Origin: Phoronis australis
Taxonomy: Eukaryota; Animalia; Phoronida
Length of the DNA: 64,000 bases
NCBI GenBank assembly: GCA_002633005.1
Contig: NMRA01000299.1
Coordinates: forward strand, 248,001-312,000
Direction of reading: 5' to 3'
The notes below the pieces were generated by a model. The model was not told the DNA's origin. It saw only the letters and a list, made by a program, of their open reading frames with translations, and made no database searches. Made by a program: the position numbers and the translations under genes. This document shows, one piece after another, positions 7,238 through 63,543 of this stretch. The first letter of the stretch is position 1; each line of letters opens with the position of its first letter.

Positions 7238-7250
7238 CTATAAAATTTAA

Positions 7251-8217: not shown

Positions 8218-8291
8218 TTAAAGGAGAAATCAAGCATATTTTATGAGACCTTTTATAAAAACCCACAAATCCCAAGTTATCCTGGAAATAC

Positions 8292-33780: not shown

Positions 33781-33795
33781 CTCGGCTGGCTTAAC
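33781..33795 (-). CDS. 15-nt phase-2 microexon (LSQPR)
   Basis: TTTTTTCAG|GTTAAGCCAGCCGAG|GTGAGT. Confidence 0.7.
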
Positions 33796-34623
33796 CTGAA
33801 AAAATCGTTGCAAAGGTAATAAACAGTTAGTAATGGAAAAATTCATGTAGTTAGTAACACATAATTATTCAACATCAAAGTTAAGGATGCATTCATAGAG
33901 ATAAGCAGCAATATATTTTAGCTTAAAGCTACATTTCACCCAGTAACTTGAATGGCTAAAAAACGGAAATTGAATTATGTTTTTTACTCTCATAAATCAG
34001 TCTCATAATATTCCTTCCTGTGACAGGATTCTGTTTCCATTACCAACAAGGACATCCAAAGCATCATGAGAGAACCAAGAAAACACTTCCAACTTTATTG
34101 TGGCTGTCCAAAACTCGAATTGTCAATTCGAAATAAGATCATAGAAACCATTAACAACTTATTATAAGAAAATGTTTCAAATTGCACTGGGTTTGGCCAA
34201 CATTAAAATAGTGAATTCAAAAATTCACAAATTGCTTGTGACTTTATTTTGTAATGGAAATGGAATCACCTATCATGAACATGAGACCAAACTGAAGAGG
34301 GTAGTAGGACCAATTCAATTTTCAATTTTAGCAAGCTAAACAGGTTGAAATGCAGCTTCAAGAAAATGACTTTTCTCTGACAAAGGAAGGCCAGAGGGTA
34401 TTTGCTATTTTTGCCACTAATTAATCACACAATTAACAATGTAATCCATAAATACCAATGACAATATATATTCAACTAGTAATTTTGTTAAAACTATTTT
34501 TTGAAGTTTAGAAACTTTTCTAAATTTGCCCCAATAGTTATTGCTTGCAAATGATAAACTACCATGTGTTTCACAGATAGCTTCAGAGGACCTGTCTGCC
34601 ATGACAATTTCCGAAAAGTTTGC

Positions 34624-37420
34624 ACAGCACACATCACAAGTTTTTGTCCCACCGGTCGGCTAGGAGTCAACCGGCAGCCGGCTGCAGTGCCGTCTCATAA
34701 GGTGACCCACCCAGCCGACTCCACAGCTGACCTTAATTGCTGACCGGCCATCAGCCGACCCGCTGGTCAGCTGCTATTTTTAGGCTAGAGTAGCAGTTGC
34801 GTAATAGGATGTCAGGCCGATACCGCTTTGCGTGCCGATGCACATTCGTCTTGCAGTAAAGACGCAAAATACACAGTTCTGTATTCCCTAAACCCATGGA
34901 CTTGAAAGGCTCTAACTTCAAAATATGGTTTCGATTTCCACGAACTTAGACAGTGACATCAAACACGGAATTACCACTATTGAGGCTACAACCAATTCCA
35001 GCTTTGCGTATTCCGTTTCCATGCATCAGTGACATTAAAATCTGCACTAGTTACAGGTATCAGCTGGTCATTTACATTGATTCAAATTAAAATAAATATT
35101 TTCTGACAACAACATATTATTCACAAATAAAAAATTTTGAACGGGAAGATGTGAATACGTGGTGACGCTGAGATATTTGTCTCTACGCGTGTGAATCTTT
35201 GGTAAAATGACTGCCATGTCGAAAAAAATGAATACACCAAGGTGCACTTTTTGAGAAGCAAAGCGTCTAAGGATGTTTATAGCGCATGATTTGGACACCC
35301 TAGGTAGTAAGTGACGCTGAATGACACCTGGCTACTGTGGCGGCAAAACAAAAATATCATGCTTGTATCACCTCCTCCCCCTTCTCCGGCCTCGAGTTCT
35401 GCACCTTCCAATGAGTCACCAAGCTTCATGTCTCCTCATACAGTATTAGGCATGCATATTACATCATACAACATCTCAGTAAAACTTGTTATCAATCAAG
35501 GTAGAAAACATTATTTGTATCATTGCCACAAGAACATAACATTGATTCATGCCAAAGGTTTGAAATAATGCCCCCTTAAGAGTTTTGACTTGCCCTGGTG
35601 ACCAATGGAATCGATGCAATAAACTTATACAAGTTGTTTTTTAACCTGTGTCACAGAACTGAAGATTGTATGCGTTTTCGTTACTTTCCGAGTTTGTTCT
35701 TTTTGAATCACAGGTTTATCATTTTTACGCTCTACATGAACATGTAGACTACCTGGGAACTTTTCTTTAGGATTACATGTACCGAGTTACTCCGATGATT
35801 TATTTTCAGAGTTTTACCCCGTGTTCTTATTCCAAAGGGCTCGGAAGGCTCTAGCCTTGGTGCGAAGCTGTTTAGTACTAAATTAAATATACAACTTTGC
35901 GCTGATGTGGGTAAAACTGAACAAATAAAATCTTTCTTGAGTAATGTAAATTATTTACCGGTGTTGCAAAAAAAGATTTTCTACTGTTATTCTGCTGCTA
36001 AAATTGTGATGTGATCTTCTGCATCGGTTTTCGGCGGAATGAAATATTGCGTCACCTATTACCCAGTTTCTTTTTCCCAGAATCTTCAATCAAACGTTCT
36101 CCATCAAGGTTGCGTAAAGATAAAAAAATGATCAGAATTCGTTTAACTTAATTATGAGTTTTTAGAATTTTGATAGCACTAAACCGAATTTTAGAACAAA
36201 TTTTCCGCGATGTTGTCATCTCATGGAAGATGTCGAAAATAATCTGGAAGTGGCGCGTGTCACAAATGTAATCCTTTCAAAACGACAACTTACCTTTCTT
36301 TGATACAAAAGGCGGAGAATCACACAAGAAAATGACGTTGAATGTTTTTGCTTAACGGCTGCACACCCACCAGTCTTGAGCTGATGTTGATACAAGTTTC
36401 ACGACGAGGTGACTTGCGCAAAAAATCCGGGCTGTGTGCAATTTTGGGGTATGTCGGAGCTACATACACAGAGCCACCTTGCTGTATTTTGGCGACGGTC
36501 TTCATACAGCTAGCTCGGGCTAGATAGGATCGCTCTAACTTTGAAACAATTTTTTACTCCGAAAATGACAACAAATTCAGAATGATGGTGGATCATGGCT
36601 GATACTATAACTGATCACATTCTTCCGTTTTCATGCGCCCATGATCTTAATATCTGCGCTATGTTCAAACCATTGTTTTTGTTGCTCCTAAAATAAACTT
36701 TTGTTCTTTTGCTTTACCAACATGTTAAGAAACGGTACAAAATTAAACGCTGTCTAGTTATTTGTGGGAAAGCGCAATATACAGCGTGATGAAGGGATGA
36801 TCAAGTGCAAGAACGGATGACCGCAAACGCGTGCTACTTGTTGAGCATTACCCGAAATGAAAACACTTGAAGTCGTTAAACATCCAGCGTTGTATTCTGA
36901 TTTTTATGCAAATTTACTGTAACATTTCAAATTTCTTGGTTGTTGACACTTTTACTACGCATATCTAGAGCTCAAAATTATGTTTCCGCGATATCATTTT
37001 ACATTTGAATTTACCACGCCGTCTGCAATTCAACATAAAGTTTACGTTGTTTTAATTTCACGCAATTAATATTTGTAGGTTGATTCGATTTTACCACCTT
37101 TCAATAGTTGAACAAAAGTTGATAAACTGACGTCAAGACCTGCGGAGTGGCCACTTGTGAATGAACAGCGAACTGTTAAATGTTTGTTTGGCCAAAGTTC
37201 ACCCGCTAAGTCATAAAATGGTAATTGCCGACCAAGGACACGCATAATCCAAATTGGTTGTCTATGCTAGGCGACCACTTTGCCGACCCAAGTGCCGACC
37301 ACAGAGGCGACTCAGCAGACGGCTCCTAGCCAACCATTGTTGGTCGGCTGCTGGTCGGGTAGACGGCTGGTCGTCGACCAATTTCCGACCAGTAGGACAA
37401 AAATTCGTGATGTGTGCTGT
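34624..37420. mobile_element. Non-autonomous TIR transposon, probably CACTA/EnSpm-like
   Basis: About 36-bp TIR ACAGCACACATCAC..TTTTTGTCC..GGTCGG at both ends; clustered subterminal CCGACC/GGTCGG repeats. Confidence 0.7.
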
Positions 37421-37826
37421 ATAGTGTGAGAGAGTGCTATGGAATTGTTTGAGTTTGTAAAAGAACTTGAATTGACAGAGAAACTTAGTTTTGTGGTGTG
37501 GTTGATTATATCATATCTATGTATACTTATCCTATGCAACTTCGCACGATTGTCCCAACTAGTCAGCATACCTACTCAGAACACTAAAAACTACAGTGAG
37601 CAAACCGCCAAGTCCTTGTTCGTTGAGTGACGCGATTACACACTCAAAGACCCTATGTTGGTAGCATTATGATAAAAGTTCCCTAACAAATCAACACAAT
37701 TGGTTTCATTTTTTTAACTTTTTAACCTTTTGGTGGCTAACATTGAAATAGTCTGTCCAGTTTATACTCCCTCAAGTCCATAAATTTCCATCACGAACAT
37801 TTTGAATTATGCAACCTTACACTTAC

Positions 37827-37856
37827 CTTAAAGTTGACAATCTAGAAACCTCCGCA
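37827..37856 (-). CDS. 30-nt phase-2 microexon (AEVSRLSTLR)
   Basis: TTTTTCTTGCAG acceptor, AAG|GTAAGT donor. Confidence 0.7.
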
Positions 37857-37949
37857 CTGCAAGAAAAATAATGTCACTCTATCAGTAACGGCAAATAAAT
37901 AATTTAAAAAAAAGAATGCAAAACTGCTTATAAATACACGTTTTCCTAA

Positions 37950-38840
37950 TGAAAAAGTAGAACAGGTATACAAGTTAAATTGTCTCAAAATGGAAGTTAC
38001 TAGTACCTCGTCATCATCAACAGTTTCAAACTTAAAGATAGAGTCAAGATAATTTTCAAAACCTTAATAGCATATCAATATTTCTGAAGGCAAATTCTTT
38101 CCAATGTACTTAAAATAGTTGTTGAGCTGTTCAGCTATTTTCTTTTGATCAGTAATGTGTCCAGAGGCAGTAAAGGTGATAAACTGAGGAAGAACAGTTC
38201 TGGAGGATGAATTAGAAATTATCTTTTTGGCGACTTGGCGTATAACATTTTTGTACTACCCGTGCTGTTCTTCATGGTACTTACGTTTTTATTACGGATT
38301 TAAATATTATGCCATTATAATTTCACAGTTTTAATGAGAAAAGGCTAGAAAAAAAAAGAATCAGATGTGGTTTTAATGGACTTTGCCTCCCACTTTCATA
38401 GATTTTAATTAACATGCTCAATGTAATCCAGTCTTTGAGTTTATGTTTATGCTTGTGCTTGTTGAACAGTTTGGTTTTGGAGAGAAAATCTTTCTTTACC
38501 AAATCCAAAAGAATTGTTTAAAAATAATTGTAGCTAGGATTTTGAGATGAATCGTTATCTAAGACTGACTCGAAGTCAATTCAAGTCAATGAAAGTTTTA
38601 AAAGTGGCATGAGATTTTTTGACTGACTTTATATAACTAAGCTTAGGTTTATGAAGTTCACTTTAATTTTTTATTAGCACCGAGAGACAAAAATATGGGG
38701 AAGTGGTCTGAATTTTGCATAACAATGTACCAGCCTCTTACATGATTGTGGTTGGAGAGAATCTTCTATTGATATGATCAATAAGATTACATCTTCCGTG
38801 GGTGGCAGATGAGCAGACAGGTGTGACGGCATGACATGCA
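37950..38840 (-). mobile_element. CR1/L2-type LINE ORF2 remnant (endonuclease-RT linker)
   Basis: WITLSMLIKI and GHITDQKKIAEQLNNYFKYIGKNL; many stops. Confidence 0.7.
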
Positions 38841-38875
38841 TGAATTTATCATATTTGATTTAGGCCAGAACAGAA

Positions 38876-40325
38876 GCACGAACTTTAAAATTAGCACGTA
38901 AGTAAATAACAACATATCTATCCAACGATTCGGTTTATTACTCTAAACCATTTTCAAGGAAACAGTTCACAGATTCAAAACAGGCGACACAGGTAGAGAA
39001 GAGGCTGTACAGGTACATGTGAGGGGGAGAGACTAGAAATCAAAACATTTGGAGCTCAAATGAACTACGTAATGTTTGTATTGAGGTAACGCTCAGCACG
39101 ATTCAACCGTATATGCATAGCCTCCTTTATGAGGAGCCTGAGGGTGGCATTATCATTGTCTAGCATCTGAACACCAGAGCAATCCATAGTGTGACCAGTT
39201 GTCGAGGAATGATTTGAGAAACAGCACTGTGTGTGTCTTTACAGTGTTTTACGATTCTGATGCTAAGAATCCTGTTTGTCATTCCAATGTGAAACTGTTC
39301 ACGCTCACTACATTTGAGTTGGTACACAACCCGACTTCTTTGAGAATTACTCAACAGTGTTTTTAGCCTCGACAATGACAAAAGTCTGTTTTCAGGTTTG
39401 AAGATTGTTACGAGATGCAAACATGGAGTAATAGCTCCAAGAATTCTCTTAACCGCAGTGCCTCTCGACTACACAACTACTGTTACCTAAATAGGGGAGA
39501 TTGAGAAATACTTTCTTCAATTCAGGCCCATGACAAACATCCGCATGTGTCCTTAGAATTGGTTACGTAAAAACCAGTCAGTGCAAGATTTTATAAATGT
39601 TTTAGGGTATCCATTTTGAATCAAGACGTTATTTAAAAATTCAAGTGCCCAGTCAAACAAGTCAGAATGCTACATGCACTGAAGACCCAATTAATCAGAC
39701 CAATGACCAGACCAGTTTTCTGCATTTTAGGAACAAAACTATCCCACTTGAGGTACAGACCTGAAAAAGTAGGTTTTCTATACACTGATTTAGACAATAA
39801 GTCATTCTGACAGTGAACTAATACATCAAGAAAACTAATGCAGTTGTTTGCTTTTGACTCTGTGGTAAATTTAATACTATTAGTACATAATGTGTTCATC
39901 CAGTCAAGAAATGGCTTAGCTTGACTGTGATGGCTAAAAGTCACGAAAATGTCAACATAATGTTTGTAATACAATGGTAGATCAGTAGGACAGTTATTAA
40001 AGGCCATGATCTCTTCTAAATTGATAATCCAGATACTAGCTAATACAGGACCTAGTGGACTCCCCATAGCAACACCGTCACATTGATCAAAGTATTCCTC
40101 ATTGAATATAAAGTGATTTTCTTTAACAGCAATGTTGAGCAATGTCTGTAGTTGCGGTCTAGTTAAACACACAGTTAATGACATGTTCCTGTACAGCCTC
40201 TTCTCTACCTGTGTCGCCTGTTTTGAGTCTGTGAACTGTTTCCTTGAGAATGGTTTAGAGTAATAAACCGAAACATTGGATAGATATGTCGTTATATACT
40301 TACACGCTAATTTTAAAATTCGTGC
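38876..40325 (-). mobile_element. Truncated Penelope-like element (RT + GIY-YIG) with inverted terminal repeats
   Basis: QCDGVAMGSPLGP..YVDIF..FLDV..VYRKPT (39633-40184); VVYQLKC..HIGMTNR (39160-39420). 38876-39020 is inverted relative to 40181-40325. Confidence 0.9.
40241..40280 (+). ncRNA. Minimal hammerhead-like motif in PLE terminal repeat
   Basis: TCC-TTGAGAA-TGGTTTA GAGTAA TAAACC-GAAAC-ATT-GGA. Confidence 0.55.
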
Positions 40326-40828
40326 ATGAATTTACTTTGCGTGTATGTGAATTGTTGGGTGTCTGCGTTTATGCATACCTGTGTTCGTGCGCATACATGT
40401 GTGTGTGTGTGGACCTTAATAAATGCTTTATTTAAATTGTTGAGTCACAGTACACAAGTACGGCCCAAAACAGAGGTTGATATTTTACGGATCGAGAGAG
40501 TGCAATGATCTCCCAAAGTTAAAATGATCTGATATGCCCGAGGAATTGGTATATACTTGTTTCATTATGTGATTCTGATGATTCTTTCATCTGATTTTTT
40601 CATCTTTTATATGAATACCACATTCTAAATTGCACTGACATTCTACTGGCTTTTTTATCAGAGATTTATGGTTTCAGCCATCTGATTGATATGATCACAA
40701 ACAGTTGCATCAGAGGTCAGGGTGGCATAACTAGAGTTATCATATCATATTTTATGCAGTCAGATGACAAAAATATCAGTGGTCGTGCAATGATAGAATA
40801 TGCAGACAGACAACTTTCATATGCTTAC

Positions 40829-40891
40829 CCCCTTTGGATAAGCCTTGGCTTAGCTTCTGACAATGCCTCGACATTTTCCACGGCGAAACTA
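40829..40891 (-). CDS. 63-nt phase-2 exon (SFAVENVEALSEAKPRLIQRG)
   Basis: CTTTTTTCAAACAG acceptor, GG|GTAAGC donor; similar to the NVxIESAQ exons. Confidence 0.65.
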
Positions 40892-41088
40892 CTGTTTGAA
40901 AAAAGCAAAAACAATAATTATACCAGCCCAGAGATGGGAAATGTTATTTTCCAACTAATCAATAAAAGAGGGGCAAGTTCTTGGCATCTAGTGCCCATTG
41001 TGCAAGGTTTACAATAAAACAAAACCAGAATAAAAATTTATGGCCCTAAAAGTAGACTATAAATCAACCAAAGAACATATAATATTAA

Positions 41089-42521
41089 AGAAGAATGCCA
41101 CCCTATTTAATTAGTCTTTTTTAATTGGTATATATCCATATCGCCTCGCATACAGTCGACATTACCTTGCTCAGAGAGGTGTCGCGTTAACTCGTGAGGA
41201 AGGTGAGAAATGACACAGTGACGTCAGTGGTTCATTTGCAGAGTGAATGCCGCTATGTTGCAGTGCATCATTACCGCTTGTCCGAACTATGCAGCTGCAA
41301 GGAAAGCGGGCATATCATATTTTCGACTTCCTCGAGAGTCCAAAATGCTTGAAGTGGCTCGCGGTAGTAAAGAATGAAAAGTACAATGTAAATAGCCACT
41401 ATGAGGCCGTGAAACATCTCCGTGTCTGTGGCCTGCAGTTGTCGACAGTGAGTCTGACGGAATGACAGCTTACCAAATAACTATCCATACGTTCCGTTGC
41501 CTGAGCTTGTTCATGGCGCCTCTCTAGTATTTCTTCATCACTGTATTCCGGTTCGAACTGATAGCCTGTGAAAGTTAACAATCCACCTGCGAAGTCTTCG
41601 TCAGATGAGCTCCTGTCTAAGACAGGATTGCGAGTTGCCATGTTGATATTTATTACTGAGCGTTTCGTTTGAAAATGAATTATTCTTACCCTAACCAATA
41701 CTTGTATAAAACTGAAACCAAGTCTGTCTCATTAGATGTCTTTGGAGTGTTCGTGAGTGCAAATGATTTGAGGAGCCAGCAATGAATAAATCACTGCGTT
41801 ACCGGCTTTAGGTCCAATAAAACTAATTGATCGGACACCGAGGCCGTGTGAGCGCATGCTAATTCAGTGACTGGAAGTTTAGTTCCAAACTTTGGCTGGC
41901 TTATGTTCGTGATGTCTTCAGTCCAGCCGCGATGGGCCTGATCGGGTTCCGAGCTACTCTTTGGGCAGGATAACGAGTCAGTCCTGCTGCGACGGACCTG
42001 ATCGGGTGCCGAGCCACTGGCCAGGATAACAAGCGTTTTGTGTGTTTAGAACTCAAAAAATCACAAGTCTAAACAACACAGATCCAGGTTCTCCTGTCTG
42101 TATTTCACGGAAGAATACTTTGAATTTATCTCCAAACAGACCCCAAACTCCTGCTACAGACCTTGGTAAATTGGCCTGCCAAACTTTGTAGGCTACGGTG
42201 TGTCCAAATACCAATAAATCCATAACAGCAAAATAAAACAACATGTTTTTATAAGAGCTCGGTGTATTTTTAAGGGTTTTACATCGAAGTTTGATGATTT
42301 ATTGGTGTTAAATGATGAATTCAAGTGATAAGCTGACACCAGTAACCTGTGTTGTGAACTCCAGAACACACTGCGTATGAAACCAATGACGTCATTGCAT
42401 AATTTCAACACCTCCATCTGCCGTCAGGTGTCAGGTAACGCAACCAAATGTGCCATTATCAAGTAGAACTACTCGATCTAAATTGATACAAAATAGGTTG
42501 TTTTTTGGGTGGCATGCTCCT
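41089..42521 (-). mobile_element. Kolobok DNA transposon derivative (THAP and KolX remnants)
   Basis: TTAA|AGAAGAATGCCACCC ... GGGTGGCATGCTCCT|TTAA. THAP-like MPLCC..W..LRVC on +; KolX-like GYQFEPEYSDEE on -. Confidence 0.8.
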
Positions 42522-42914
42522 TTAAATAAACAAAAAAATAAGTATGGTGGAACCTACGGCTGCAAGACAAGGCTGTTTTGCAACTTATCAAAATGACTGA
42601 AGAAATAAAACCAAAAATAAACATGAAAAAGTACAACAAGGTCATGAATTAGCAAAAGTCATCCAAAGCTATATGCGATTGCGTGCTGTCTCCATTTTTC
42701 TTCCAAACTTCGTGGGCATCAATTCAGAGACATAGTGGATGCAGATACAAAATATTACCATCAGGGGTACAGCAGTTGTGAGAATCAACTAAAATAAAAA
42801 GTCATCTATCCTATTCAAATCTAATGACAATCCTTCTAGTTCAGGATCAGCTTTAGCCAGAGACAAATAATATTTTTGCACAAACAATAAGTGTATACAA
42901 GTTACATCACTCAC

Positions 42915-42935
42915 CCCAGCCCTTGGTAGTTTGAC
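42915..42935 (-). CDS. 21-nt phase-2 microexon (SNYQGLG)
   Basis: TTTTTTCAG acceptor, GTGAGT donor; flank paralogous to the 33781 exon. Confidence 0.7.
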
Positions 42936-43758
42936 CTGAAAAAATCGTTGCAAAAATAGTAAACAGTAATGAAACTGACTGCACCACATTCACACAATTT
43001 CATACATGTAATTATTCAACATCATAGGTAAGGGTACATTAAAGAAGCAGCAACGTGTTTTGGCTTAAAGTTGCAAGGACAACTTCTAATCAGTTGCTTG
43101 ACAACCATATGGCTCAATCAATTCAATGCTGGTATAAAAATACTAAAAACATGTAACAAAATGAAACCAGTTCCAGTTAATTTTGTGACAAGTACACAAC
43201 CTTGTAGAAGTGAAGAACAGTTGATTGAAGACTTAGGGAAAAAATAAACTGGTTAAAGTCAGGCGACGCAGTATTTCATGGCGCCGATAGCCGATGCAAA
43301 AGATCGCATCATAATTTTAGCAGCAGAATAACGGTAGAATGCCAAATTTTTCCAACACCAGTAACTAAGTTAGTTTACACAATGAAAAGTGTACTTTTCA
43401 ATGACATTAATTTTGTGTCAGATGATATTTGTCTAGTTTTTTACTCTTATCGTCACAAACCGGTATATTTAGTATAGAGCGTAGCACCAAGGCTACAGAT
43501 AAACATGCTTTGTGTGTTTGCAAAAAACTCCTGATTAGAACATTTTCATTTTACTCCAACAAGAACAAATTAAACAATTTCCACAAAAAGCATGGTCAAA
43601 GGAATAAAATGACAAAACTGTTAATAGATTACTGCCTGTATCTTTGCTGCCTCTACTCCCACAGACTTACACAAACTGATAACAAACACAATTTCAGTAA
43701 ATACTTGTACCATCATTTTGACTCACAACGAAACATGCAGACTGCCAATTACACTTAC

Positions 43759-43806
43759 CTCTTGCTTGCCTGCAACAATGGCTGGGCACTTTCAATGGCG
43801 ACATTC
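43759..43806 (-). CDS. 48-nt phase-2 microexon (NVAIESAQPLLQASKR)
   Basis: TTTTTTCAAG acceptor, GAG|GTAAGT donor; duplicate of 52506-52553. Confidence 0.75.
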
Positions 43807-44119
43807 CTTGAAAAAATTAAGGATTATATTATTACACCAACAAGAAAATAGTAATGGTATTTCAATCAAGTACTTACTTGTAAGTTGAAGTTTGACTGTA
43901 ATTCTAATGATCTGCTAACGAATGGAAAGATTACGTGAGATGTACACACAGATCAATGAGTCACAATTGAAACTGAGTGAATGCTTGCAAGACATTACAG
44001 GCCAACAGAATATTACCCAGTAAACAGACATAAACCACAGGGTGGGTGATAGTGGAAGGCACGTATCTAATCTCTCCAATCATTAACAGTTTGTTAGAAT
44101 TACAATCAAACTCCAACTT

Positions 44120-44765
44120 GCAGGTAAGTCTTGTTTAATTTATCAATTCTAACTCACTGCTAACTTCACTTCAAGATTACATGAGAATTCAAAGTTGTAA
44201 AAAGAGGGCAAAGCGTAAAATAATGCAAGTAGTTTATTAACACCGTCTGTGATATATAAAAACTATATACAGACAACTATGCACAGACAGATGATACGTA
44301 ATGTATTTGTAAGCAGTTAACCCTAGTAATAGGCTTGTTACTTTCTGAAAACACAATCAATACCCCCAAGTACCAGTTTGTAGAATCGTACATCTAAACT
44401 ACCAGCTTTACTGGCCGCTGCTGCATGTGTTCTGTGCAGTGTAAAAATGGACACATCATTGCTAGCCGTAATAAGAACTGTCTTATTCCACCTAGCGATA
44501 ATGTCTTTAGAGACAGGCTGATGAGTCTTGGTATATGAAATAAACAACTGATTACAGTTCTTTTGTAACCCAGCAGTATACTTAATGTGCTCTTTGTAAT
44601 AATGTGCATATGCACAAACATTAATTTCCTTTTGCTGGAAATCGACTCTAGAATGTTTAAGATCATCAAAATGAAGTTTTAAACAACAAGATTTTACATT
44701 AACATTCCTAACATCTAACAGAAGCAATGATTGACCACACTAACCAGTTAGGAGCCCCAGAATTA
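44120..44765 (-). mobile_element. DIRS-like tyrosine-recombinase end fragment (part of a local duplication)
   Basis: QLFISYTKTHQPVSKDIIARW..IFTLHRTHAAAASKA resembles the DIRS YR C-terminus; paralogous to 52830-53445. Confidence 0.75.
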
Positions 44766-44819
44766 TTGTTAAATGGGATATATCACTTGAAGTTACTAGC
44801 TTTACCAGAACCATAAGCC

Positions 44820-46723: not shown

Positions 46724-46756
46724 TTTGCTGTATTCTCTTGAAGCTGTAGTTCATTG
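46724..46756 (-). CDS. 33-nt phase-2 microexon (NELQLQENTAK)
   Basis: GTTTGTTTTCAG acceptor, GTGAGT donor. Confidence 0.7.
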
Positions 46757-49185: not shown

Positions 49186-49212
49186 TCGGAGAACTCGTCT
49201 TCAAATTCAAGA
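49186..49212 (-). CDS. 27-nt phase-2 microexon (LEFEDEFSD)
   Basis: CTTTGTTTTCAG acceptor, GTGAGT donor; paralog of 56789-56815. Confidence 0.75.
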
Positions 49213-50890: not shown

Positions 50891-51142
50891 CCATCGATCC
50901 TGAGTACTTGGCACATATACTTGAGACACTCAAAATTCCTGAGCAAAAACCAAGCTTTGTTTGTATTATACCCATAAGCATTAAGCTTGTACTGCTGAGC
51001 TAAGACTTGCCTATCAAATCAAGAAATATGATTTCACTATTTTCCTCTTTTGATGGACTAGTCTATTCACGCCGGTGGCACTAAACTGTCCATTTTATAG
51101 TCTCTGAAGTATCTAGGTTGCATGATATTAATGTGTACTTAC

Positions 51143-51166
51143 CGAACAGCTTTAGAAGGTGCCCTC
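51143..51166 (-). CDS. 24-nt phase-2 microexon (RAPSKAVR)
   Basis: TTTTTTTTTCCAG acceptor, CG|GTAAGT donor. Confidence 0.75.
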
Positions 51167-51647: not shown

Positions 51648-51671
51648 TTAGGTTCTTTGAAAGGTGCCTTT
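51648..51671 (-). CDS. 24-nt phase-2 microexon (KAPFKEPK)
   Basis: TTATTCTTCCAG acceptor, GTAAGT donor; tandem duplicate of the 51143 exon. Confidence 0.75.
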   Translation of the reverse strand, partial: KGTFQRT

Positions 51672-52505: not shown

Positions 52506-52553
52506 TTAAGGGTTGGCTGGAACAATGACTGGGCACTTTCAATGTCGACGTTC
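52506..52553 (-). CDS. 48-nt phase-2 microexon (NVDIESAQSLFQPTLK)
   Basis: TTTTTTCAAG acceptor, GTAAGC donor. Confidence 0.75.
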
Positions 52554-52829
52554 CTTGAAAAAATTAAAGATTATATTACTACACCAACAGGGAAACAGTA
52601 ATGGTATTTCAATCAAGTATTTACATGTAAGTTGAAGTTTGATTGTAATTCTAACGATCTGCTAACGAATGGAAAGATTACGTGAGATGTACACACAGAT
52701 CGATGAGTCACAATTGAAACTGAGTGAATGCTTGCAAGACATTACAGGCCAACAGAATATTACCCAGTAAACAGACATAAACTACAGGGTGGGTGATAGT
52801 GGAAGGCACGTAATCTCTACATTCATTAA

Positions 52830-55800
52830 GTCAGGTAAGTCTTGTTTAATTTATCAATTCTAACTCACTGCTAACTTCACTTCAAGATTACATGAGAGTT
52901 CAAAGTTCTAAACAGAAGACTAAAATAATGTAAGTAGTTTATTAACACTGTCTGGGATGTATAACAACTACATGCAGACAACTACGCACAGATAGAGGCT
53001 ATTGGATTTGTAAGCATTTAAGCCAAGAGATAGGCTTGTTACTTTCTGAAAACACAATCAATACCCCCCAAGCACCAGTTTGTAGGATCTACTTAAAGAT
53101 CCAAACTACTAGCTTAACTGACTGCTGCAGCATGTGCACTGTGCAGAGTAAAAAAGGACATGTCATTGCTAGCCATTTTCTTATTCCACCTAGCGATAAT
53201 GTCTTTAGGCTTGGTATATGAAACAAACACCTGATTACAATTCTTTCGTAACCCAGTAGTACGCTAATGTACTCTTTGTAATAATTAACAATACACAACT
53301 TCTAGTTACGTGCATATGCTGGAAACCAACTGTAGTATTTTTAAGCAAATTATCAAAATGAAGTTATAAACAACAGGATTTTACACTAAAATTCCTAACA
53401 TCTAACAGAAACAATGATTGACCACACTGACCAGTTAGGAACCCCAGCAATGTAATCAATTTTTAAAAAAGTCTACAATTTTAAAGAAATGACTTTGGGA
53501 GGAGAAATAGATCTTAAAAAATTAAGTACTATACAAACATCCCAAGAAACAACTGTTTTAGGGATAGCTGGTCACAAGATGACACCTTTCAAAAATCTAA
53601 CGACTACAGGCAAACAAATCAATATCTGGGGTATCCCACTAAGCAGCTAAATGTTGAAAAATGTCAACATCAAACTTCCATACCACATCATCATATTTGC
53701 AGCTTTCATGATCAGCCACAACATTCAAACTCCCAGGAGGATAAGAAGCAGTAACCCAAATATCATGGTCTTTGCATCACAACAGTGCCTCGTGAGTGAT
53801 AGCCTTAAGTTCGAGCACCACACCTCATATGATTCAAGTATTGCATTCACCACTCTCTCTAGTACTGGGAGCAACAATGCCCTCACGGAACATAAGTCAG
53901 ATTAATTTGAAAAATAATTCACCTGAGGGCGGATCGCTGGGGCCAATTTATAAGGCAAAAATGGCTCCGCCTCGAATTCTAAACCAACCTCACGAATACA
54001 GTCACGGGGGGGGGTGCGAATGTACAATGCATGAGCCTTGAAAAAAAAACAAAAAAACGTTTTTCTTTTAGTAATAAGGTCCACAAACCCAAAAAAATCA
54101 AGACCCCGTACATCCCTACATTATAGCCTAAGCGCGTACATGAGGCGAAATTCTGGTTAATCCTGTGCCCTGGCCCCCCTAACTTAAAATCCTGGATCCA
54201 GAGATGACCAAAAGGTAAAATGATCAGCTCACTGACTGACACAAAACTCGATAGGAATACCATCGGATAGGGTAAGTAAACTACAACCTAATGTCAGTGT
54301 TAGATTTAAGTGTAGTATGGCTGATATTACGTATCTGTTTAAAGGTTTGTCGCTGGGTCGATGAGTGGGAACCAGCGCCTGGTTTCCTCATGTCATAAGG
54401 AAAGTAGTGGCAAGAGCTTGCACTGGTGCTGGTAGCAATGGCATGATCACATCCATTATCGCCCATTCCACAATATACGCGCCCAAACTGCGTGTAACGT
54501 GGCCCACTGGGGTACGTCGAGTAGGGAGCACAATTGCCGAGCGACGCTGCATCACTAACATTTCTTAACTTAGGTGGCAAGATCTTCACCAAACAATTGA
54601 CCTATCACCAGGACTTTGAGTGATCAACTTCACTGACCAATCAGAATGCACTCTTGACACACATTTGTTTCTAAATCGCCATTTTACCCGACAAACAACA
54701 TGTTGCCGGGTATAACTTATTGTTTGTTAATCAACTTTTCGCAAGGGGGCGGAACCTGCAGTAGGTCAATTGTGAGCTTTCCTTTTCCACAGTGTTACAC
54801 AGCAAATGGATTCCCGCCGTCCCTGGTTCAGTTCAATGTTGGCATCGCCCAGGAACATGAGTGCCTCCAACGCCAACCATTTCAAACTTGCACATTCCGT
54901 TACCGGCCCTCGTAGTTGTTCGGCGAGGGCAATGATGGGGGCTGCCACAGAGAGTAAGGGCGGCAACAAATGCTGCAACCTGACATCCATTGCCTTGGTA
55001 GTTAGCCGTAGGCAATATCACAACTCACTATTTACTTTCGCTGCCGAGATGGGTACAATATTTGGCCGTTTGTGTTTGTTACATAAATCTTTCACTTTGT
55101 TGTCACCCAGTTTCATGGTGAACAGGGAAGTAGTCACAATGGCCAACTTCTCCGCGACTGGCGGGTCCACGCCAGCGACTTCGTCGATATAGGCTGCGAT
55201 TTTGTCAAGAAAAACGTCCGAGCCATCTGCACTCGTCAGCTGGAGATCAGCACAAAGGCTGTGACCTCCTCTCCCTGCACCAACTCGCCAGGTTACAAAA
55301 CCTCGAAGGAGCAATTATCAAGTGGGCCTTCAGGTACGGGCATATGCGACACCAAAACCGACTTGATTAGGTCTGTCAACTGAGCTTTGAAGGCCTCACT
55401 CATGCCCTTTCAAAGGGTGGCCTTAAAGAGAAATGTCAGTAAGCTTAACTTTAACAGCCTTGTCAGGTTCAGATTTGTTTAGAGACTTTACTACTTTGGA
55501 CTTTTTGCTGTCTTTTGACACAGGTTCCACAGTTCATGAGACACAACGAGAGTGTAGGTCTGAATGCAGAATCACAAGTAACAAAAGTTCAAGCAGCCGA
55601 TACAAAGGTACAGCACCACTGGCAAGCTCATTCATGATTGGCAGTGCCAAACCAAAGTTCCGTCACAAGCGCAAGCAGTAAGCACTATTGTTTGACCTAA
55701 TTAAGGACATGACAAGGAAACGCGAAGGGAATTCCCGCTAAACGGTGAACAGACGCCAAAGGCTTAGCAAAACAAAGCCACCATTACGTGACAAGATTGG

Positions 55801-56270
55801 AGAATTCCAGTACTCGATGACTCCTGCTTCCAGCAGAACAAGACCATGGTCAAGCACTGAGTACAGCATGGAACAAAGACCACGGTTAAGCACATAGTAC
55901 AGTGCAGACCAAAGCATTCAGGAAACTCAACTAGGAAAAGAGGCATACGTGGTCAAAAACACCTGCAATAGTATCGCCCATGCTGCAAAATATCACAGGC
56001 ACGTACCAAAAGTTAACTTTGTCACACAGACTGCAAATCGGTAAACCGTCAAATACGGAATAAAAATATATTAATAAAGAACAGAAAGTCAACAATTGCT
56101 AATAGTTAACTATGACACGCAGAGACAAAGCAATGCTAGTGGAAATAAAAGCGAAAACACAAGAGTTACGAAAACTTGTCTTAACATCAACAGAATCCAC
56201 ACACTAATCATCTGCCAGCGCATCTCATGTAATCTCGAAGTGAAGTTAGCAATGAGTTAGAATCGAAGTT
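52830..56270 (-). mobile_element. Degenerate DIRS-like retrotransposon with inverted terminal repeats
   Basis: 52857-52897 is inverted relative to 56223-56263. YR remnant at about 53000-53450; gag-like LCNKHKRPN..KVNSEL and LMFLGDANIELNQGRRESI at 54800-55200. Confidence 0.75.
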
Positions 56271-56788
56271 TTATTTAAATCTGCCCATAAGGGAATGCAG
56301 AAAAACTGAAAGAGTATCTTGGTTGGACAGCACTACTATAATAATCAAGTTAGTGGGTGTTATCATTTCATTAAAAAATGCAGATTCTACTACATTCCAT
56401 TAATATCTGTGGAGATCAAGAGGCAACAGCAAAAGTACCACAAGGGGGCATAGCACTAGTGATGATTGTGCAAACATTAACCAAGATTTGGAAAACTGAG
56501 AGGAGGATACCAAAAACAAACATTAAAAACTGTCGTTAAGGGATGCACAATTGGTTAAATTCACTTACGGATGGACGACTGTTGTTCCCATTTTTCTGTA
56601 GCCGTAGTTTATGAAAATCTATCAAGGAATTTAAGAAAGGCAGGCGCAAAAAATAATGTCTTGAGGGGAGCAGCAACAACCAGATGCTTCCAAAAATCAA
56701 ATGAGAGGATAATTTTATTCAGCTTAGCCCAAACTCCTAAGAGCAATTGATTTCTCATCAATCTGGCGACATATTGTAGGTTACTCAC

Positions 56789-56815
56789 TCTTCGAACTCA
56801 TCTTCTGATACAAGT
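56789..56815 (-). CDS. 27-nt phase-2 microexon (LVSEDEFEE)
   Basis: GTTTGCTTTCAG acceptor, GTGAGT donor. Confidence 0.75.
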
Positions 56816-57222
56816 CTGAAAGCAAACATAGAACAAGAAGTAGTAATTTGCATGTTACTTGACTGTTTTGACAATGTGAGGATCCCAACTGTTCCTATAA
56901 AAATACAGTACTTAAACTTACACTTCCAAACTTTCAAGTAATAGTTTACCACTCTCTTCATGATAATTTATATACAATGGCATCATCACAACATGGACTT
57001 CAAATCACAGGGTTTCTGATAAACTTGGTGTTTAGGCATGCTAAGAATGTCTCTCAGTCAAACAGAACAAATAATGTCCATGATGACATAAGGTTAAAGA
57101 CAGTTCTTGACTCCAGCCAGGAAATCCTAACATCATAAACTATTATGAGAGAAACAACCCATTTCCTAGGATATTTGAGATTCATGCACAATATTAAAGA
57201 TGATTTATTTAATTGTACCTAC

Positions 57223-57246
57223 CCCAGTGAATTATACGCCAACTCC
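57223..57246 (-). CDS. 24-nt phase-2 microexon (ELAYNSLG)
   Basis: CTTCTGTTTTCAG acceptor, GG|GTAGGT donor. Confidence 0.7.
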
Positions 57247-58068
57247 CTGAAAACAGAAGAATAACATCAAGATTACGTTTGGTTTAACCAGACTTAACCA
57301 TGTAAAAACAAGCTCTCCATCTCCCTCTGCCTTTCCCAGTCACTCTACACAAACAGCTAAATCTAAAAAATTAATAGACCATAAGGACACAAAATGCTTT
57401 GCCCAAAATGATCTGCTGAAGCACACCAACTTATAGAACCTGATCAAGAGCAATGATTGACCGTCTGTTCTTTCCAGCACCAGATACCATATTTGATTTT
57501 GATAAGGAGCAAGCTGAGGCCAATCTTACAAGAGTAAAAGTGGTCTCAATCAAAAGCCAGTTATTGCAATGGTCAATTAAAAGGCATTTTGAACCTGACT
57601 TCTGTAAAAAAATAACTTTTGGTTTACTCTACTTAGTTTATAATAACTAGACTCAACTTAGGGAGAACCTGTAAATTTGTTATTGCTTGCCACCATGCTC
57701 GGATAAGTCAACTTATTGAGTTTGTCAAGCCCAGAAATAACGTCCAAGTTGGGATCCATTTGAAACTAGTTTTTTAGTAAGCACCCGAATGGAAAGTGTT
57801 GAAATGCACCCACAACTGCACAAGAAATGCTATGCTAAAGCCTTGTAGACGTGTTTATTGGTTGCATAAAAATGGAAGTAGGTGGCACAGAATACATCGA
57901 CCCCGTTAAAAAATTGGAAGGCAAAGTCATCTCCATATACAAAAGATATTGCCAACTTAGATGAAAATCCACCCAGAAATTTAAAAAAATAAAATTATAT
58001 CTTCCAATTTTCACTATGATCCTTCAAGTGGTTTGACAAATAGAGAAGCAGATGCCAAAAAATATAAC

Positions 58069-59872
58069 ACAAGAGCAACGCAGAGCATTGAAATGCGCCC
58101 ACAATTGCACCGTATACGGTATCCTTCTAGGGTTGTTTATTGGTACCATAAAGTGGCCAGTAGAGGGCATATATGTAGTATGTTGTACTTTGCAAAATGG
58201 AAAGGCATGGTCATTGTCTCCTTAATAGGCTAGGGGCAAAATGTGAGTGATCTTCATAATACAAGCACATCCTATACATCAGTTGCTTAAAGCACCACAG
58301 AAACATAGAATTAAAAACAAATTTACCAACATACGAGATTAGCACAGCATTAGAATGCCAGAAACAAATTTCTACTTGGAACTTTTCCTTCATAGTCACG
58401 AAGCAACACAAAGTATACACCTGAAGACCTATGAAAATNATACACTTATTAAATTTCGTAAAGATCCTGCGAACGGTTTAGGAGATACAGCCATGGGCGC
58501 AAAAAAAAACTGCCACTAGGAGGCGCCACAGTAATCAAAGTCATGGGAAATTCAGCATCAACCGTCCTCTTCAAAAACAGTAAAAATGGCCACTGGGTGT
58601 CGCAAACTAGGTCGAATCCATCCGAAAACGGGAGGATAGCGTCATCGCACTAATAGGTGCCTACATACCAAATTTCATGAAAATCCGTTAAAGACTTGTG
58701 AAGATAGAGGTAAACATAAAAAAATAAAATTGCCACTAGGGGGCACACTGGTAGGCGGATCCGTCCAAAAGTCGTCGTCTGTTGTTAACATCATATAAAT
58801 ACACTTATTAAATTTCGTAAAGATCCTGCGAACGGTTTAGGAGATATAGCCATAGGCGCAAAAAAAAACTGCCACTAGGAGGCGCCACAGTAGTCCAAAT
58901 CGTCTGAAAATCATTGTCAGCTGTCCTCATTATAGTTAGCACATACATGCCAATTTTCACAATCATCCTTTGAGCGGTTTGGTTGATAGAGGAGTTGACG
59001 CAAAAATACAGACTCGAAAACAGTAAAAATGGCCACTAGGTGCGCAAACTACGTTGAATCCATCCGAAAACGGGTGGATAGCGTCATCTCACTAATAGAT
59101 GCCTACATATTAAATTTCATGAATATTCCGTTAAGGACTTTTAAAGATACAAAGGTAAACATAAAAAAATAAAATTGCCACTAGGGGGCACACTGGTAGT
59201 CGGATCCGTAAAAATGTCGTCATCTTCCGTTGTTAACATCATATAAATATACTTACACAATTTCGTAAAGATCCTGTGAACGGTTTAGGAGATACAGCCA
59301 TAGGCGCAAAAAGAAAACAAAACTGCCACTAGGAGGCGCCTCAGTAGTTGAAATCGTCGGAAAATCATCTTCAACCGTCCTCTACATAGTAAGCATATAC
59401 ATGCCAACTTTCACAATCATCCTTTGAGCGGTTTGGTTGATAGAGGGGTGGACGCACAAAAAGACTCGAAAACACTAAAAATGGCCACTACGTGGCGCAA
59501 ACTATGTCGAATCCATCTGAAAACGGGAGGATAGCGTCATCTCACTAATAGGTGCCTACATACCAAATTTCATGAAAATCCGTTCAGGACTTTTGAAGAT
59601 ACAAAGGTAAGCATAAAAAACTAAAATTGCTACTAGGGGGCACACCGGTACTCTGATCCGTCGGAAAGTTTGCACATGCCGTCCCATTCATGAATGGAAC
59701 ATGTGCCAAATTTCATGAACGTATGTCAAAGGGTTTTGGACACAAAGCAGCGGGCCCCGGACGCCGGACGGACGCCGGACGGACGCCGGACGGACGCCGC
59801 CCGGACAGACGGACGGACGGACGGAGATGACGGCATAATGCGTCCACATATAAATATGTGGGCGCATAAAAA
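58069..59872 (+). mobile_element. Helentron/HINE-like element (best-preserved copy)
   Basis: ACAAGAGCAACGCAGAGC start with internal ATGCGCCCAC. About 445-bp higher-order repeat of three ~150-bp subunits. (GGAC)n microsatellite and terminal hairpin ATGCGTCCACATA-TAAA-TATGTGGGCGCAT. Confidence 0.8.
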
Positions 59873-60196: not shown

Positions 60197-60250
60197 CTGT
60201 TTTTAACAGTTTCACTTGCTTCCAATAAGGAAACTTTTTCCACATTTTGC
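60197..60250 (-). CDS. 54-nt phase-2 exon (QNVEKVSLLEASETVKNR)
   Basis: GTTTCAG acceptor, CAG|GTATGA donor, open frame. Confidence 0.6.
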
Positions 60251-61279: not shown

Positions 61280-63229
61280 AGGAGAATGCCACCAAAAAGC
61301 AACCTAGTTTGTATCAATTTAGATCGAGTAGTTCCACTCGGTAGCAGCAAGTACAGCTCTTTTACCTGACACCTGACAGCAGACGGAGGTGTTGAAATTA
61401 ACCAGTGACGTCAGAGGTTCGAATGCAGTCTGTTCAGCAGTTCACAACACACTTACTGGTGTCAGCTAATCGCTTGAATTCATCGTTTTACACCAATAAA
61501 TTATCAAAATTCGATGTAAATCGCTTACAAACACATCGAGTTATTGAACAAACATGCTTTTTATTTCGCTATTATGGAATTTTAGGTATTTGAACGTACC
61601 GTAGCCTACAAAGTTCGGTAGGCCTAGTTACCAAGGTCAGTCACGGGAGTTTGGGGTCTGTTCAGTGATAAATTCAAATTATTCGTTCATCAAATACAGA
61701 CAGGAGAACATAGCTGTGTGTTGTAATTTTAGACTTGCAATTTTTTTCAGTTCTAAACACACAAAACGCTTGTTATCCCAGCCAGTGACTCGGAACCCAA
61801 TCAGGCCCATCGCGGCCGGACTGAAGACATCACGAACATAAACCATCAAAAGTTGGAAACTAAACTTCTAGTCACGAAAAGACTATACTAGTGAGCGAAA
61901 GAAAATGTGATTATTTTGGTGAATTAGTCGCGAAACTGCAAATCAACTTACTACCTCCTCGGGGGCCGCAACATCAGGTTATCCTTCCACAGAACCGTCA
62001 TGGCAAAAGTAGCACAGTAACTAAGATTCGAATAATGTATATTAATTTTTAATATGAATATCTAAATAAAGATTCCCCTAATGTCTGGACATAGGATATA
62101 AAATCATGTTATTGTTTCACAACAACCTTCTGTCAGCAAACACTGAATTAGCATGCACTCACATGGCCTCAATGCTTGGTCAATTAGTTTATGGCATCTA
62201 AAGCCGGTAACGCAGTGATTTATTCAATGCTGGCTTCTCAAAACATTTGCACTCACGAATGCTGCAAAGGCATTACAAATTGTATCTAATGAGACAGACT
62301 TTGTTTCAGGTTTATATAAGCATAGGTTAGGGTGAAAATAATTCATTTTGAAACAGAATGCACAATATATAAACGTCAACTTGACTACTCGCACTCCCTA
62401 CTTAGACGAGTGCCCAACGAAGACTTCACAGCTCGATTGCTAGGTTTCACAGGCTATCAGTTCGAACCCGAATACACTGATCAAGAAATAATAGAGAGGC
62501 TCCGTGAACGTGCACAGACAACGGAACACATGGATAGTTCCGAAAACTGTTTGAATGACTTGTCATGGTGTCAGTGAGCTAACTGCATGATAATGGAAAT
62601 GACTGACGTTTCCGTTTGATGCCACAAAATTCCGCAGGTGAAACGCCTTCTTCAGTAGAGAAGCGCAGATGTCTCACAGACCATCCTGATTTTGCACCGC
62701 ATCTAAACAGAGGTGTGCTTACAACAATTTTTAGAGAGTGAGAAAAAGAACTGGCGAAATCATCCTACACTCAGAGGACCAAACAGAAGCCTCACAAACG
62801 AGTCAGTCATCAAACAGGTTAACACGGCACCTCTCAGCGAGGTAAGATCGACCCTATACAAGGTGATGTGTATACAGACCGATTAAGACCATAAAAAACA
62901 CTATAGTCTTTTCGTGACTAGAAGTTTAGTTTCCAACTTTTGATGGTTTATGTTCGTGATGTCTTCAGTCCGGCCGCGATGGGCCTGATTGGGTTCCGAG
63001 TCACTGGCTGGGATAACAAGCGTTTTGTGTGTTTAGAACTGAAAAAAATTGCAAGTCTAAAATTACAACACACAGCTATGTTCTCCTGTCTGTATTTGAT
63101 GAACGAATAATTTGAATTTATCACTGAACAGACCCCNTAGTAAGTTGATTTGCAGTTTCGCGACTAATTCACCAAAATAATCACATTTTCTTTCGCTCAC
63201 TAGTTAATTAAATCGGGTGGCATTCTCCT
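61280..63229 (+). mobile_element. Kolobok derivative, second copy, inverted relative to 41089-42521, with KolX remnant
   Basis: TTAA|AGGAGAATGCCACC ... GGTGGCATTCTCCT|TTAA. GYQFEPEYTDQE..WCQ*ANC..CHKIPQV..CLTDHPDF at 62450-62700. Confidence 0.8.
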
Positions 63230-63522
63230 TTAAGCATACTGTTGTCAGGTCAGATCAAGAATCAAATTTGTGGAAATTTACACAAACTTTCTAGCTTAAA
63301 ATGGCAAATCTAATTGTGAAAAGAAAATACAAGGTCCAATTTAAATGAAAATACTTCACTGAAATCTCAGTGATGAGTAACAAATGACTTGAATTTATAA
63401 GAATAGAATTATGGTGCATTATATAAGAGAACACTGAGAGTGAGATCACCTATGTGGCCGTGAGGGAGTCAGCAGACTACTATGAATATAAGTGCTACAA
63501 TTCCTTTTATTACCACACTTAC

Positions 63523-63543
63523 TTTGAAGGAGCCTTCTTTTTC
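63523..63543 (-). CDS. 21-nt phase-2 microexon (KKKAPSK)
   Basis: TTTTTTTTGCAG acceptor, GTAAGT donor; similar to the RAPSK/KAPFK exons. Confidence 0.7.

What the first reader, a model, noticed from the sequence alone, without database searches (positions are those of the whole stretch)
33781..63543. Array of at least 14 symmetric phase-2 microexons feeding into an LRR-Roc-COR-like protein: a possible combinatorially variable N-terminus
Seen: 14 short minus-strand segments of 21, 54, 24, 27, 48, 24, 24, 27, 33, 48, 21, 63, 30 and 15 nt. Each has an AG acceptor (nearly all with a good pyrimidine tract) and a GT donor, is a multiple of 3, and is open in phase 2. None ends in TA or TG, so any skipping combination stays in frame without a junction stop. 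They join a phase 2-1 exon (31465-31505) that leads in frame to the LRR exons. Peptide classes recur (xAP[S/F]K, LxxEDEF, NVxIESAQ). Known parallels: schistosome micro-exon genes generate variants by skipping symmetric exons, and brown-algal ROCO genes show shuffling of LRR exons. Inference: an isoform-diversifying, exon-cassette N-terminus on an animal Roco-like protein, invisible to the ORF track.
Basis: partly seen in the sequence, partly recalled or inferred. Interest (0 to 1): 0.85.

Follow-up and report, generated by a model that had tools for sequence, protein, structure and literature searches.

The report
Duplicated tiny exons build protein arm
Fourteen very short frame-keeping segments, most of them old copies of one another and two of them seen spliced together in RNA, likely build a flexible front arm on an animal-type leucine-rich-repeat protein; the little RNA available showed no mixing and matching, so this is probably a tidy case of a known way of growing repeat proteins.

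Summary
The 14 segments (15-63 nt, 459 nt over 29.8 kb) are there as described: AG/GT ends, multiples of three, open in phase 2, no junction stops. They read in frame into 13 further predicted exons (599 aa, no stop). RNA confirms one junction, 40829 to 37856 (7 stranded reads in 2 of 4 runs). New here: 11 of the 14 fall into four families by homology of their flanking introns, so the array grew by exon-plus-intron duplication. Length changes within families are all multiples of three, while the peptides drift (pN/pS about 1, tiny sample). No skipping junction was listed, but coverage was about six reads, so combinatorial splicing is neither shown nor excluded. The link to the LRR exons rests on frame alone. 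The LRR is FBXL-like. The Roc-COR label failed profile tests against bacterial Rocos and the P-loop GKT is absent, so 'Roco' is only a by-eye lead. Best reading: a low-complexity, likely flexible N-terminal arm made by tandem duplication of symmetric exons, a known mechanism. The scan has noted similar arrays on other DNA.

The parts
63523..63543 (-). E1, 21-nt phase-2 exon candidate (AP-type peptide; family C by peptide only)
60197..60250 (-). E2, 54-nt phase-2 exon candidate, weak splice sites (family B by peptide only)
57223..57246 (-). E3, 24-nt phase-2 exon candidate; upstream flank loosely like E8
   Evidence: z 4.6 up, 1.7 down; no depth
56789..56815 (-). E4, 27-nt exon candidate, family A (acidic EDEF type)
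   Evidence: no depth
52506..52553 (-). E5, 48-nt exon candidate, family B; AAG acceptor; lies in a 1.1-kb segment duplicated around E10
51648..51671 (-). E6, 24-nt exon candidate, family C
51143..51166 (-). E7, 24-nt exon candidate, family C, tandem copy of E6 with its flanks
   Evidence: (z 10.0 and 9.1)
49186..49212 (-). E8, 27-nt exon candidate, family A
46724..46756 (-). E9, 33-nt exon candidate, family A by upstream flank
   Evidence: z 5.3 with E4, 4.1 with E8
43759..43806 (-). E10, 48-nt exon candidate, family B; AAG acceptor
   Evidence: z 20.2 and 13.9 with E5; about 210 letters of X1 depth in its bin, not assignable to the exon
42915..42935 (-). E11, 21-nt exon candidate, family D
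40829..40891 (-). E12, 63-nt exon, family B; donor confirmed by RNA
   Evidence: (joint 37856-40829)
37827..37856 (-). E13, 30-nt exon, family C; acceptor confirmed by RNA
33781..33795 (-). E14, 15-nt exon candidate, family D (E11 type, 6 nt shorter)
   Evidence: next to a repeat that the read tool skipped
31465..31505 (-). 41-nt phase 2-to-1 exon candidate that links the array to the body of the gene
   Evidence: donor GTTTGT; inferred from frame
29946..30031 (-). 86-nt predicted exon
   Evidence: about 2 X1 reads' worth of depth on the sense strand
28625..28846 (-). 222-nt predicted exon with a cysteine-containing, FBXL-like LRR
   Evidence: Pfam LRR_6 E 2.2e-4, below its cut-off; FBXL2 chain E 3.4e-7; about 140 letters of X1 depth
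28199..28388 (-). 190-nt predicted exon: one more LRR-like turn and a Ser-rich linker
1900..23551 (-). nine further predicted exons (23551-23388, 22070-21951, 21339-21191, 14576-14471, 11421-11245, 8794-8675, 5754-5629, 4596-4501, 2101-1900), about 420 aa, only faintly Roc-COR-like and without a P-loop GKT
52600..56270 (-). degraded mobile-element remnant in the E4-E5 intron, with internal inverted repeats; DIRS-like by recalled resemblance; its 3' part recurs upstream of E10 (about 43860-44760)
   Evidence: no library match

Best explanation
The 14 segments are likely all real coding exons (one junction is shown in RNA) that arose mostly by repeated duplication of a few phase-2 exons with their flanking intron, and that would be spliced largely in order to give a roughly 153-residue, low-complexity, probably flexible N-terminal arm on a protein with two or three FBXL-like leucine-rich repeats. 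Shown: sequence, splice sites, four flank-homology families, frame-keeping length differences, one spliced junction. Inferred: only duplicates that kept a multiple of three survived, which explains the symmetry without any selection for diversity; selection acts on frame and splice sites more than on the peptide sequence, so the arm works as a spacer or tether whose length and composition matter; a few exons may be skipped in some tissues. Also inferred from frame alone: the array, the LRR exons and the roughly 420-aa downstream region form one transcript. That region may be a catalytically dead Roc-COR relative, but this is unproven.
For: Canonical minus-strand joint 37856-40829, first mate on +, 6 reads from 4 starts in X1 and 1 in X2, none in X3 or X4. 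It passes over a strong-site 60-nt decoy at 38344-38285 that has an in-frame stop. X1 depth of 187-194 letters in the E13 bin and 391-397 in the E12 bin equals about six full passes of each exon, so nearly all X1 reads on either exon use this junction. Flanking introns group 11 of 14 exons: A = E4, E8, E9; B = E5, E10, E12; C = E6, E7, E13; D = E11, E14 (strongest flank z per pair 4.1-20.2; alignments). The four length changes within these families (6, 15, 6, 6 nt) are all multiples of three (chance 1 in 81, my arithmetic). For the three equal-length pairs pN 0.256 and pS 0.254. The peptide has 63% disorder-promoting residues and no W, C or M. The 13 downstream exons join into 599 aa without a stop. 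The mechanism is in print for human genes (PMC3632108, passages).
Against: Only 1 of 14 junctions was seen. No joint links the array to the LRR exons (16 joints hidden, 2). X1 has no sense-strand depth in the bins of E3-E8, including the 48-nt E5, although it has about six reads on E12-E13. X2 has 240-246 letters in the E12 bin but one read into E13 and none in the E10 bin, which could be skipping. pN/pS near 1 rests on about 23 differences and also fits dead exons or mixed selection. The charge-hydropathy index is 0.011, borderline and not clearly disordered. No start codon in the right phase was found; the 5' end probably lies beyond the window. No orthologue was found to test conservation.
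Confidence: 0.6

Rival explanations
1. Combinatorial cassette: the exons are skipped in many combinations, as in schistosome micro-exon genes, giving a variable N-terminus on a receptor-like LRR protein.
For: Every skip keeps the frame with no junction stop. Two AAG acceptors and a weak E2. Samples differ in where depth falls: X1 on the E10, E12 and E13 bins and none on E3-E8; X2 traces of 10-49 letters in the E5-E8 bins, none on E10, and about four exon-lengths on E12 with one read into E13. E5 and E10 differ at 10 of 48 positions against 74 of 725 in the farther duplicated intron (p 0.03) and 21 of 194 in the near flanks (p 0.09).
Against: No skip joint was listed in either lay, and 7 of 7 listed reads entering E13 come from E12. 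The X2 traces are 1-2 reads, in bins that may also catch repeat-derived reads. Duplication alone explains the symmetry. pN does not exceed pS. The exons encode an unstructured-looking arm and not the LRR binding face; no signal peptide is visible in the window.
Confidence: 0.2
2. Only the 3' part of the array (about E10-E14) is in use; the upstream copies are unused or dying duplicates, or belong to a separate or alternative-promoter transcript that is not joined to the LRR exons.
For: No X1 sense depth over E3-E8. Neutral-looking peptide divergence. No read-level link to the LRR exons.
Against: The upstream copies keep the strongest splice sites and open frames although their flanks differ from their sister copies by about 10-28%. 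Exons of 24-27 nt may not be placeable by the read tool, and coverage is only a handful of molecules.
Confidence: 0.15
3. The array is a chance pick of AG...GT pairs from 30 kb of AT-rich intron.
For: Strong-looking decoys exist in the region (38344-38285, 61246-61226, 42596-42558), and 9 of 14 fall below my middle cut-off.
Against: 7 strict candidates against 0 in three controls; flank-homology families; an RNA junction exactly at predicted sites.
Confidence: 0.03

Closest known systems
Runs of symmetric exons made by internal tandem duplication that encode disordered regions (PMC3632108; passages read)
   Same: Consecutive exons of one symmetric phase, similar to each other, encoding low-complexity sequence; the paper also finds such exons enriched among alternatively spliced ones.
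   Different: Here four exon classes are interleaved, in phase 2 (the rarest intron phase in that paper, 21%), with introns of 0.4-4.2 kb, and homology shows better in the intron flanks than in the peptides.
Schistosome micro-exon genes, MEGs (PMC5825161, PMC4671649; passages read)
   Same: Many short symmetric exons in a row; often disordered products; skipping would keep the frame.
   Different: MEGs are about 80% micro-exon coded (6-36 bp), small (about 10 kDa), secreted or membrane-anchored, and produce variants. Here the array is about 20% of a predicted protein of 750 aa or more, 4 of 14 exons exceed 36 nt, and no variant was seen.
Brown-algal ROCO genes with shuffled LRR exons (PMC11378527, passages read; PMC3341825, search listing only)
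   Same: Phase-2 symmetric exons multiplied near the N-terminus of an LRR protein.
   Different: There each exon is 72 bp and encodes one LRR, with splice variants on record and a recognisable ROC-COR. Here the duplicated exons encode no LRR, vary from 15 to 63 nt, and Roc-COR was not confirmed.
Fast skeletal troponin T N-terminal variable region (PMC2447309: search listing with start of abstract and one reference line; the rest recalled)
   Same: [quoted passage not shown]
   Different: Combinatorial use is established for troponin T and not here; the proteins are unrelated.
FBXL-type cysteine-containing LRRs (FBXL2 chain 6o60_C, KDM2A chain 9wsq_B)
   Same: The repeat in 28846-28625 matches (E 3.4e-7 and 0.0066); Pfam LRR_6.
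   Different: Only two or three repeats are visible, no F-box was detected in the exons scanned, and the hits are generic repeat matches, not orthologues.

Membership tests
Roco (Roc-COR) proteins | Roc GTPase domain detectable by profile | tested here: not met
   No Pfam Roc hit on single exons. Bacterial Roc-COR profiles gave -2.6, -2.9 and -2.4 bits; hhalign probability 0.12 with 26 of 60 shuffles as high; glocal Roc part z 0.17. Limits: the profiles are bacterial only and the exons are short.
Roco (Roc-COR) proteins | P-loop G-x-G-x-x-G-K-T and W-D-F-G-G-Q motifs (invariant in the 7 Rocos) | tested here: not met
   The model has VIGEKDDSLF and LNVFKCPS at the places that look equivalent by eye; no GKT or GKS there and no DxxGQ.
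Roco (Roc-COR) proteins | COR domain directly after Roc | tested here: inconclusive
   The best, non-significant hits fall in the expected register. Glocal over the whole module z 2.1 (2 of 150 shuffles as high), but the reversed sequence scored as well (18.2 against 17.3); COR-A z 1.3, COR-B z -0.6.
Roco (Roc-COR) proteins | Roc-COR fold in a structure model | not testable with these tools
Schistosome-type micro-exon genes | about 80% of coding region in symmetric exons of 6-36 bp | tested here: not met
   459 nt in the array against about 1800 nt in the downstream exons; 10 of 14 are 36 nt or shorter.
Schistosome-type micro-exon genes | signal peptide or membrane anchor, small product | tested here: inconclusive
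   The 5' end is not in the window; the predicted product is 750 aa or more, so not small.
Schistosome-type micro-exon genes | variants made by exon skipping | tested here: inconclusive
   No skip joint listed; 7 reads at one junction only; hidden rows.
Brown-algal shuffling LRR exons | 72-bp phase-2 exons, one LRR each | tested here: not met
   Exons are 15-63 nt and encode no LRR consensus; phase 2 is shared.
Tandemly duplicated symmetric exons encoding disordered regions | three or more consecutive exons of one symmetric phase | tested here: met
   14 consecutive phase 2-2 segments; RNA proof for one junction.
Tandemly duplicated symmetric exons encoding disordered regions | homology between the exons | tested here: met
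   11 of 14 in four flank-homology families.
Tandemly duplicated symmetric exons encoding disordered regions | predicted disorder | tested here: inconclusive
   63% disorder-promoting residues, but charge-hydropathy index 0.011; no dedicated predictor was on hand.

The most novel reading that the evidence does not exclude
An orphan animal LRR protein with a catalytically dead Roc-COR-like module carries an N-terminal arm assembled combinatorially from four classes of duplicated phase-2 micro-exons, with different exon sets in different tissues or individuals: a micro-exon diversity generator on an intracellular receptor-like protein, outside flatworms.
Probability: 0.15. Interest if true: 0.72.

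Novelty: new member of a known kind. Interest (0 to 1): 0.38.

Why it matters
If the best reading holds, this is a clear natural record of how a flexible arm grows: four exon types copied with their introns, frame and splice sites kept, peptide sequence free to drift. It also flags a gene that ORF-based annotation would miss and that has no detected orthologue. If the exons turn out to be skipped combinatorially, it would extend micro-exon diversification from secreted schistosome proteins to an intracellular LRR protein, and a single RT-PCR would show it.

Tried and rejected
No whole genome is held for this window, so paralogues and the 5' end could not be sought. No RNA holder was listed by the index; runs came by species label. 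Orthologue searches were blank: word-based search with the LRR exon, 0 of 24 candidates; HMMER on 1.84 billion representatives gave 810 hits, and of the 150 listed none matched the model convincingly outside the LRR part. Metagenome scans: 0 exact matches to part of E12; 5 loci for the LRR exon, four generic LRR proteins and one bacterial peptidase-like chance match, L005. The ESM Atlas gave no answer. PDB sequence searches with three downstream exons gave nothing useful: one hit of 27 bits with no stretch passing on its own, and two blanks. Pfam on 13 exon pieces gave only LRR_6 at a credible level. Roc-COR profile tests were not significant. I rejected the idea that the 48-nt exons are parts of the mobile element: they lie about 50 nt beyond its inverted-repeat end, and E12 shares their flanks without the element. 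I considered phase 1 (E1-E12 are also open in that frame) and phase 0 for E11/E14; both were rejected because those frames stop in E13 or in other exons and do not reach the LRR frame. The candidate 63788-63686 ends in phase 0 and cannot precede E1. Literature: (microexon, symmetric, ROCO) listed one unrelated paper; searches listed no comparable array on an LRR or Roco gene. Only the open-licence library was searched and no supplements were read.
Full report
Observation. They hold 459 nt over 29,763 nt, with introns of 407-4235 nt. All are open in phase 2, and no pair among them and 31505-31465 forms a junction stop. With splice matrices hand-set from recalled consensus, the strict cut-off gave 7 short candidates (6 symmetric, 4 also open) on this strand and region, and 0 on the plus strand or on either strand of 1-31 kb; 40 Markov simulations averaged 1.1 (maximum 5). 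At the middle cut-off the counts were 9 against 1, 1 and 2, and only 5 of the 14 were among the 9. So the region is enriched beyond chance, but several members have modest sites, E2 above all. Only 9 of 14 are 30 nt or shorter.

The body of the gene. Downstream, 13 predicted exons from 31505 to 1900 join with matching phases into 599 aa without a stop. The gene probably runs past both ends of what I modelled; no start codon in the right phase was found before E1. Exon 28846-28625 holds a cysteine-containing LRR: Pfam LRR_6 E 2.2e-4, just under the curated cut-off, FBXL2 chain E 3.4e-7. No orthologue turned up.

Is it a Roco? By eye the part after the LRRs has the order of strands and helices of a small-GTPase fold followed by COR-like motifs, and the best profile hits fall in the expected register. 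But profiles from 13 and 131 bacterial Roc-COR regions scored it at -2.4 to -2.9 bits, below the best shuffles. hhalign gave probability 0.12, with 26 of 60 shuffles as high. A glocal alignment gave z 2.1 overall, but the reversed sequence scored as well. The GKT and WDFGGQ motifs that are invariant in the Roco alignment are absent. No animal Roco profile could be built, so a very diverged, catalytically dead relative is not excluded; membership is not shown.

RNA. Four runs were offered by species label; about 18-19% of each raw run was read. Laying 24700-44400 (4 runs) and 37700-57400 (3 runs) listed one joint at predicted sites: 37856 to 40829, CT..AC, first mate on + (RNA on the minus strand in a usual stranded library), 6 reads from 4 starts in X1, 1 in X2, none in X3 or X4. 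It passes over a 60-nt decoy with top-scoring sites and an in-frame stop (38344-38285). Bin depths converted to letters give X1 187-194 in the E13 bin and 391-397 in the E12 bin, about six full passes of each, so almost every X1 read on these exons uses this junction. X1 also has about two reads' worth on 30031-29946 and about 140 letters on the LRR exon, sense strand only. No skip joint and no joint to the LRR exons was listed, but 16 and 2 joints were hidden, a joint needs three reads, and most laid reads came from repeats. Results that do not fit a single full-length isoform: X1 has no sense depth in the bins of E3-E8; X2 has about four exon-lengths in the E12 bin with one read into E13, none in the E10 bin, and traces of 10-49 letters in the E5-E8 bins. 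These are one to four reads, some in bins with repeat fragments, so they are a lead only.

Origin. Aligning 80 nt of intron on each side against shuffles groups 11 of 14 exons into four families: A (E4, E8, E9), B (E5, E10, E12), C (E6, E7, E13), D (E11, E14). E3 resembles E8 upstream only; E1 and E2 join C and B by peptide only. Self-BLAST shows the same pairs as duplicated segments, the longest 1135 nt at 81% around E5 and E10. That segment includes the 3' part of a mobile-element remnant with inverted repeats (DIRS-like by recall, no library match), so the element was probably in place before the duplication. The order A-B and B-C recurs, which suggests copying of multi-exon blocks as well as of single exons (inference). 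Within families the lengths differ by 6, 15, 6 and 6 nt between aligned AG and GT ends: all multiples of three, 1 in 81 by chance (my arithmetic). This is the best sign that the upstream copies, too, have been under selection as translated exons.

What is selected. For the three equal-length pairs pN is 0.256 and pS 0.254 (about 23 differences). E5 and E10 differ at 10 of 48 positions, against 21 of 194 in the near flanks (p 0.09) and 74 of 725 farther out (p 0.03). So frame and splice sites are kept while the peptide drifts, with at most a hint of faster change. The joined peptide is rich in E, L, S, A and K, lacks W, C and M, and is 63% disorder-promoting, but its charge-hydropathy index is borderline at 0.011.

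Mechanism. Most likely (0.6) a few phase-2 exons were copied repeatedly with their flanks; only frame-keeping copies and length changes survived; the result is a flexible spacer or tether in front of the LRRs, spliced mostly in order, perhaps with a few regulated skips. Skip tolerance is then a by-product. Rivals: combinatorial cassette (0.2), upstream copies unused or unlinked (0.15), chance (0.03).

Comparison. Growth of disordered regions by internal duplication of symmetric exons is described for human genes (PMC3632108, passages). Schistosome MEGs are mostly micro-exon coded, small and secreted (PMC5825161, PMC4671649, passages); this gene fails the first two points. Brown-algal ROCO genes shuffle 72-bp phase-2 exons that each encode an LRR (PMC11378527, passages); here the duplicated exons encode no LRR. 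Troponin T is the closest analogy for an alternatively spliced N-terminal cluster on an intracellular protein (PMC2447309, listing only; the rest recalled). Searches listed no such array on an LRR or Roco gene; only the open-licence library was covered.

Verdict. A real, expressed, duplication-built array of symmetric exons; a new member of a known kind. The exciting part, combinatorial use on a dead-Roco scaffold, stays possible (0.15) and is cheap to test. Interest 0.38.

Noticed in passing
window 52600-56270 and 43860-44760: Degraded mobile element with a gag-like frame (55314-55018), a tyrosine-recombinase-like frame (44739-44338) and inverted repeats (52854-52897 with 56223-56266; 43872-43933 with 44068-44129). 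It looks like a DIRS retrotransposon by recalled resemblance; Pfam, PHROGs and PDB gave no match.
   Followed up: partly
window 38344-38285 (-): 60-nt segment with top-scoring splice sites but an in-frame stop in phase 2; skipped by all 7 listed junction reads. A decoy or possible poison exon.
   Followed up: partly
   Followed up: partly
window 40891-40889 (-): E12 begins with TAG right after its CAG acceptor (a NAGNAG site), allowing a 3-nt shorter in-frame form.
   Followed up: no
window E1-E12: The first 12 exons joined are also free of stops in the next reading frame (about 137 codons), up to a stop in E13; probably a by-product of codon composition.
   Followed up: no
window 61653-61887 / 62902-63136 and 61887-61953 / 63138-63204: Perfect inverted copies (235 and 67 nt, 100%) next to an N at 63137: a very young foldback or an assembly artefact.
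   Followed up: no
window 58440-59770, 44820-46460, 19000-20290, 2610-3460: A family of roughly 450-nt tandem or interspersed repeats (70-88% alike) that attracts many RNA reads with mainly one orientation around 44900-46400.
   Followed up: no
window 39633-40331 (-), 32500-33000 (-), 100-930 (+), 3720-4360 (+): Fragments that look like reverse-transcriptase or endonuclease remnants of Penelope- or LINE-like elements (recalled resemblance; Pfam gave no credible hit on two of them).
   Followed up: partly
window 22956-23118: Perfect 32-nt tandem repeat, 5.1 copies, each ending in an acceptor-like TCTTCAG on the minus strand, inside an intron of the gene.
   Followed up: no
window 63788-63686 (-): 103-nt exon-like segment upstream of E1 that ends in phase 0 and so cannot feed E1 in frame; could be untranslated or a decoy.
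   Followed up: partly
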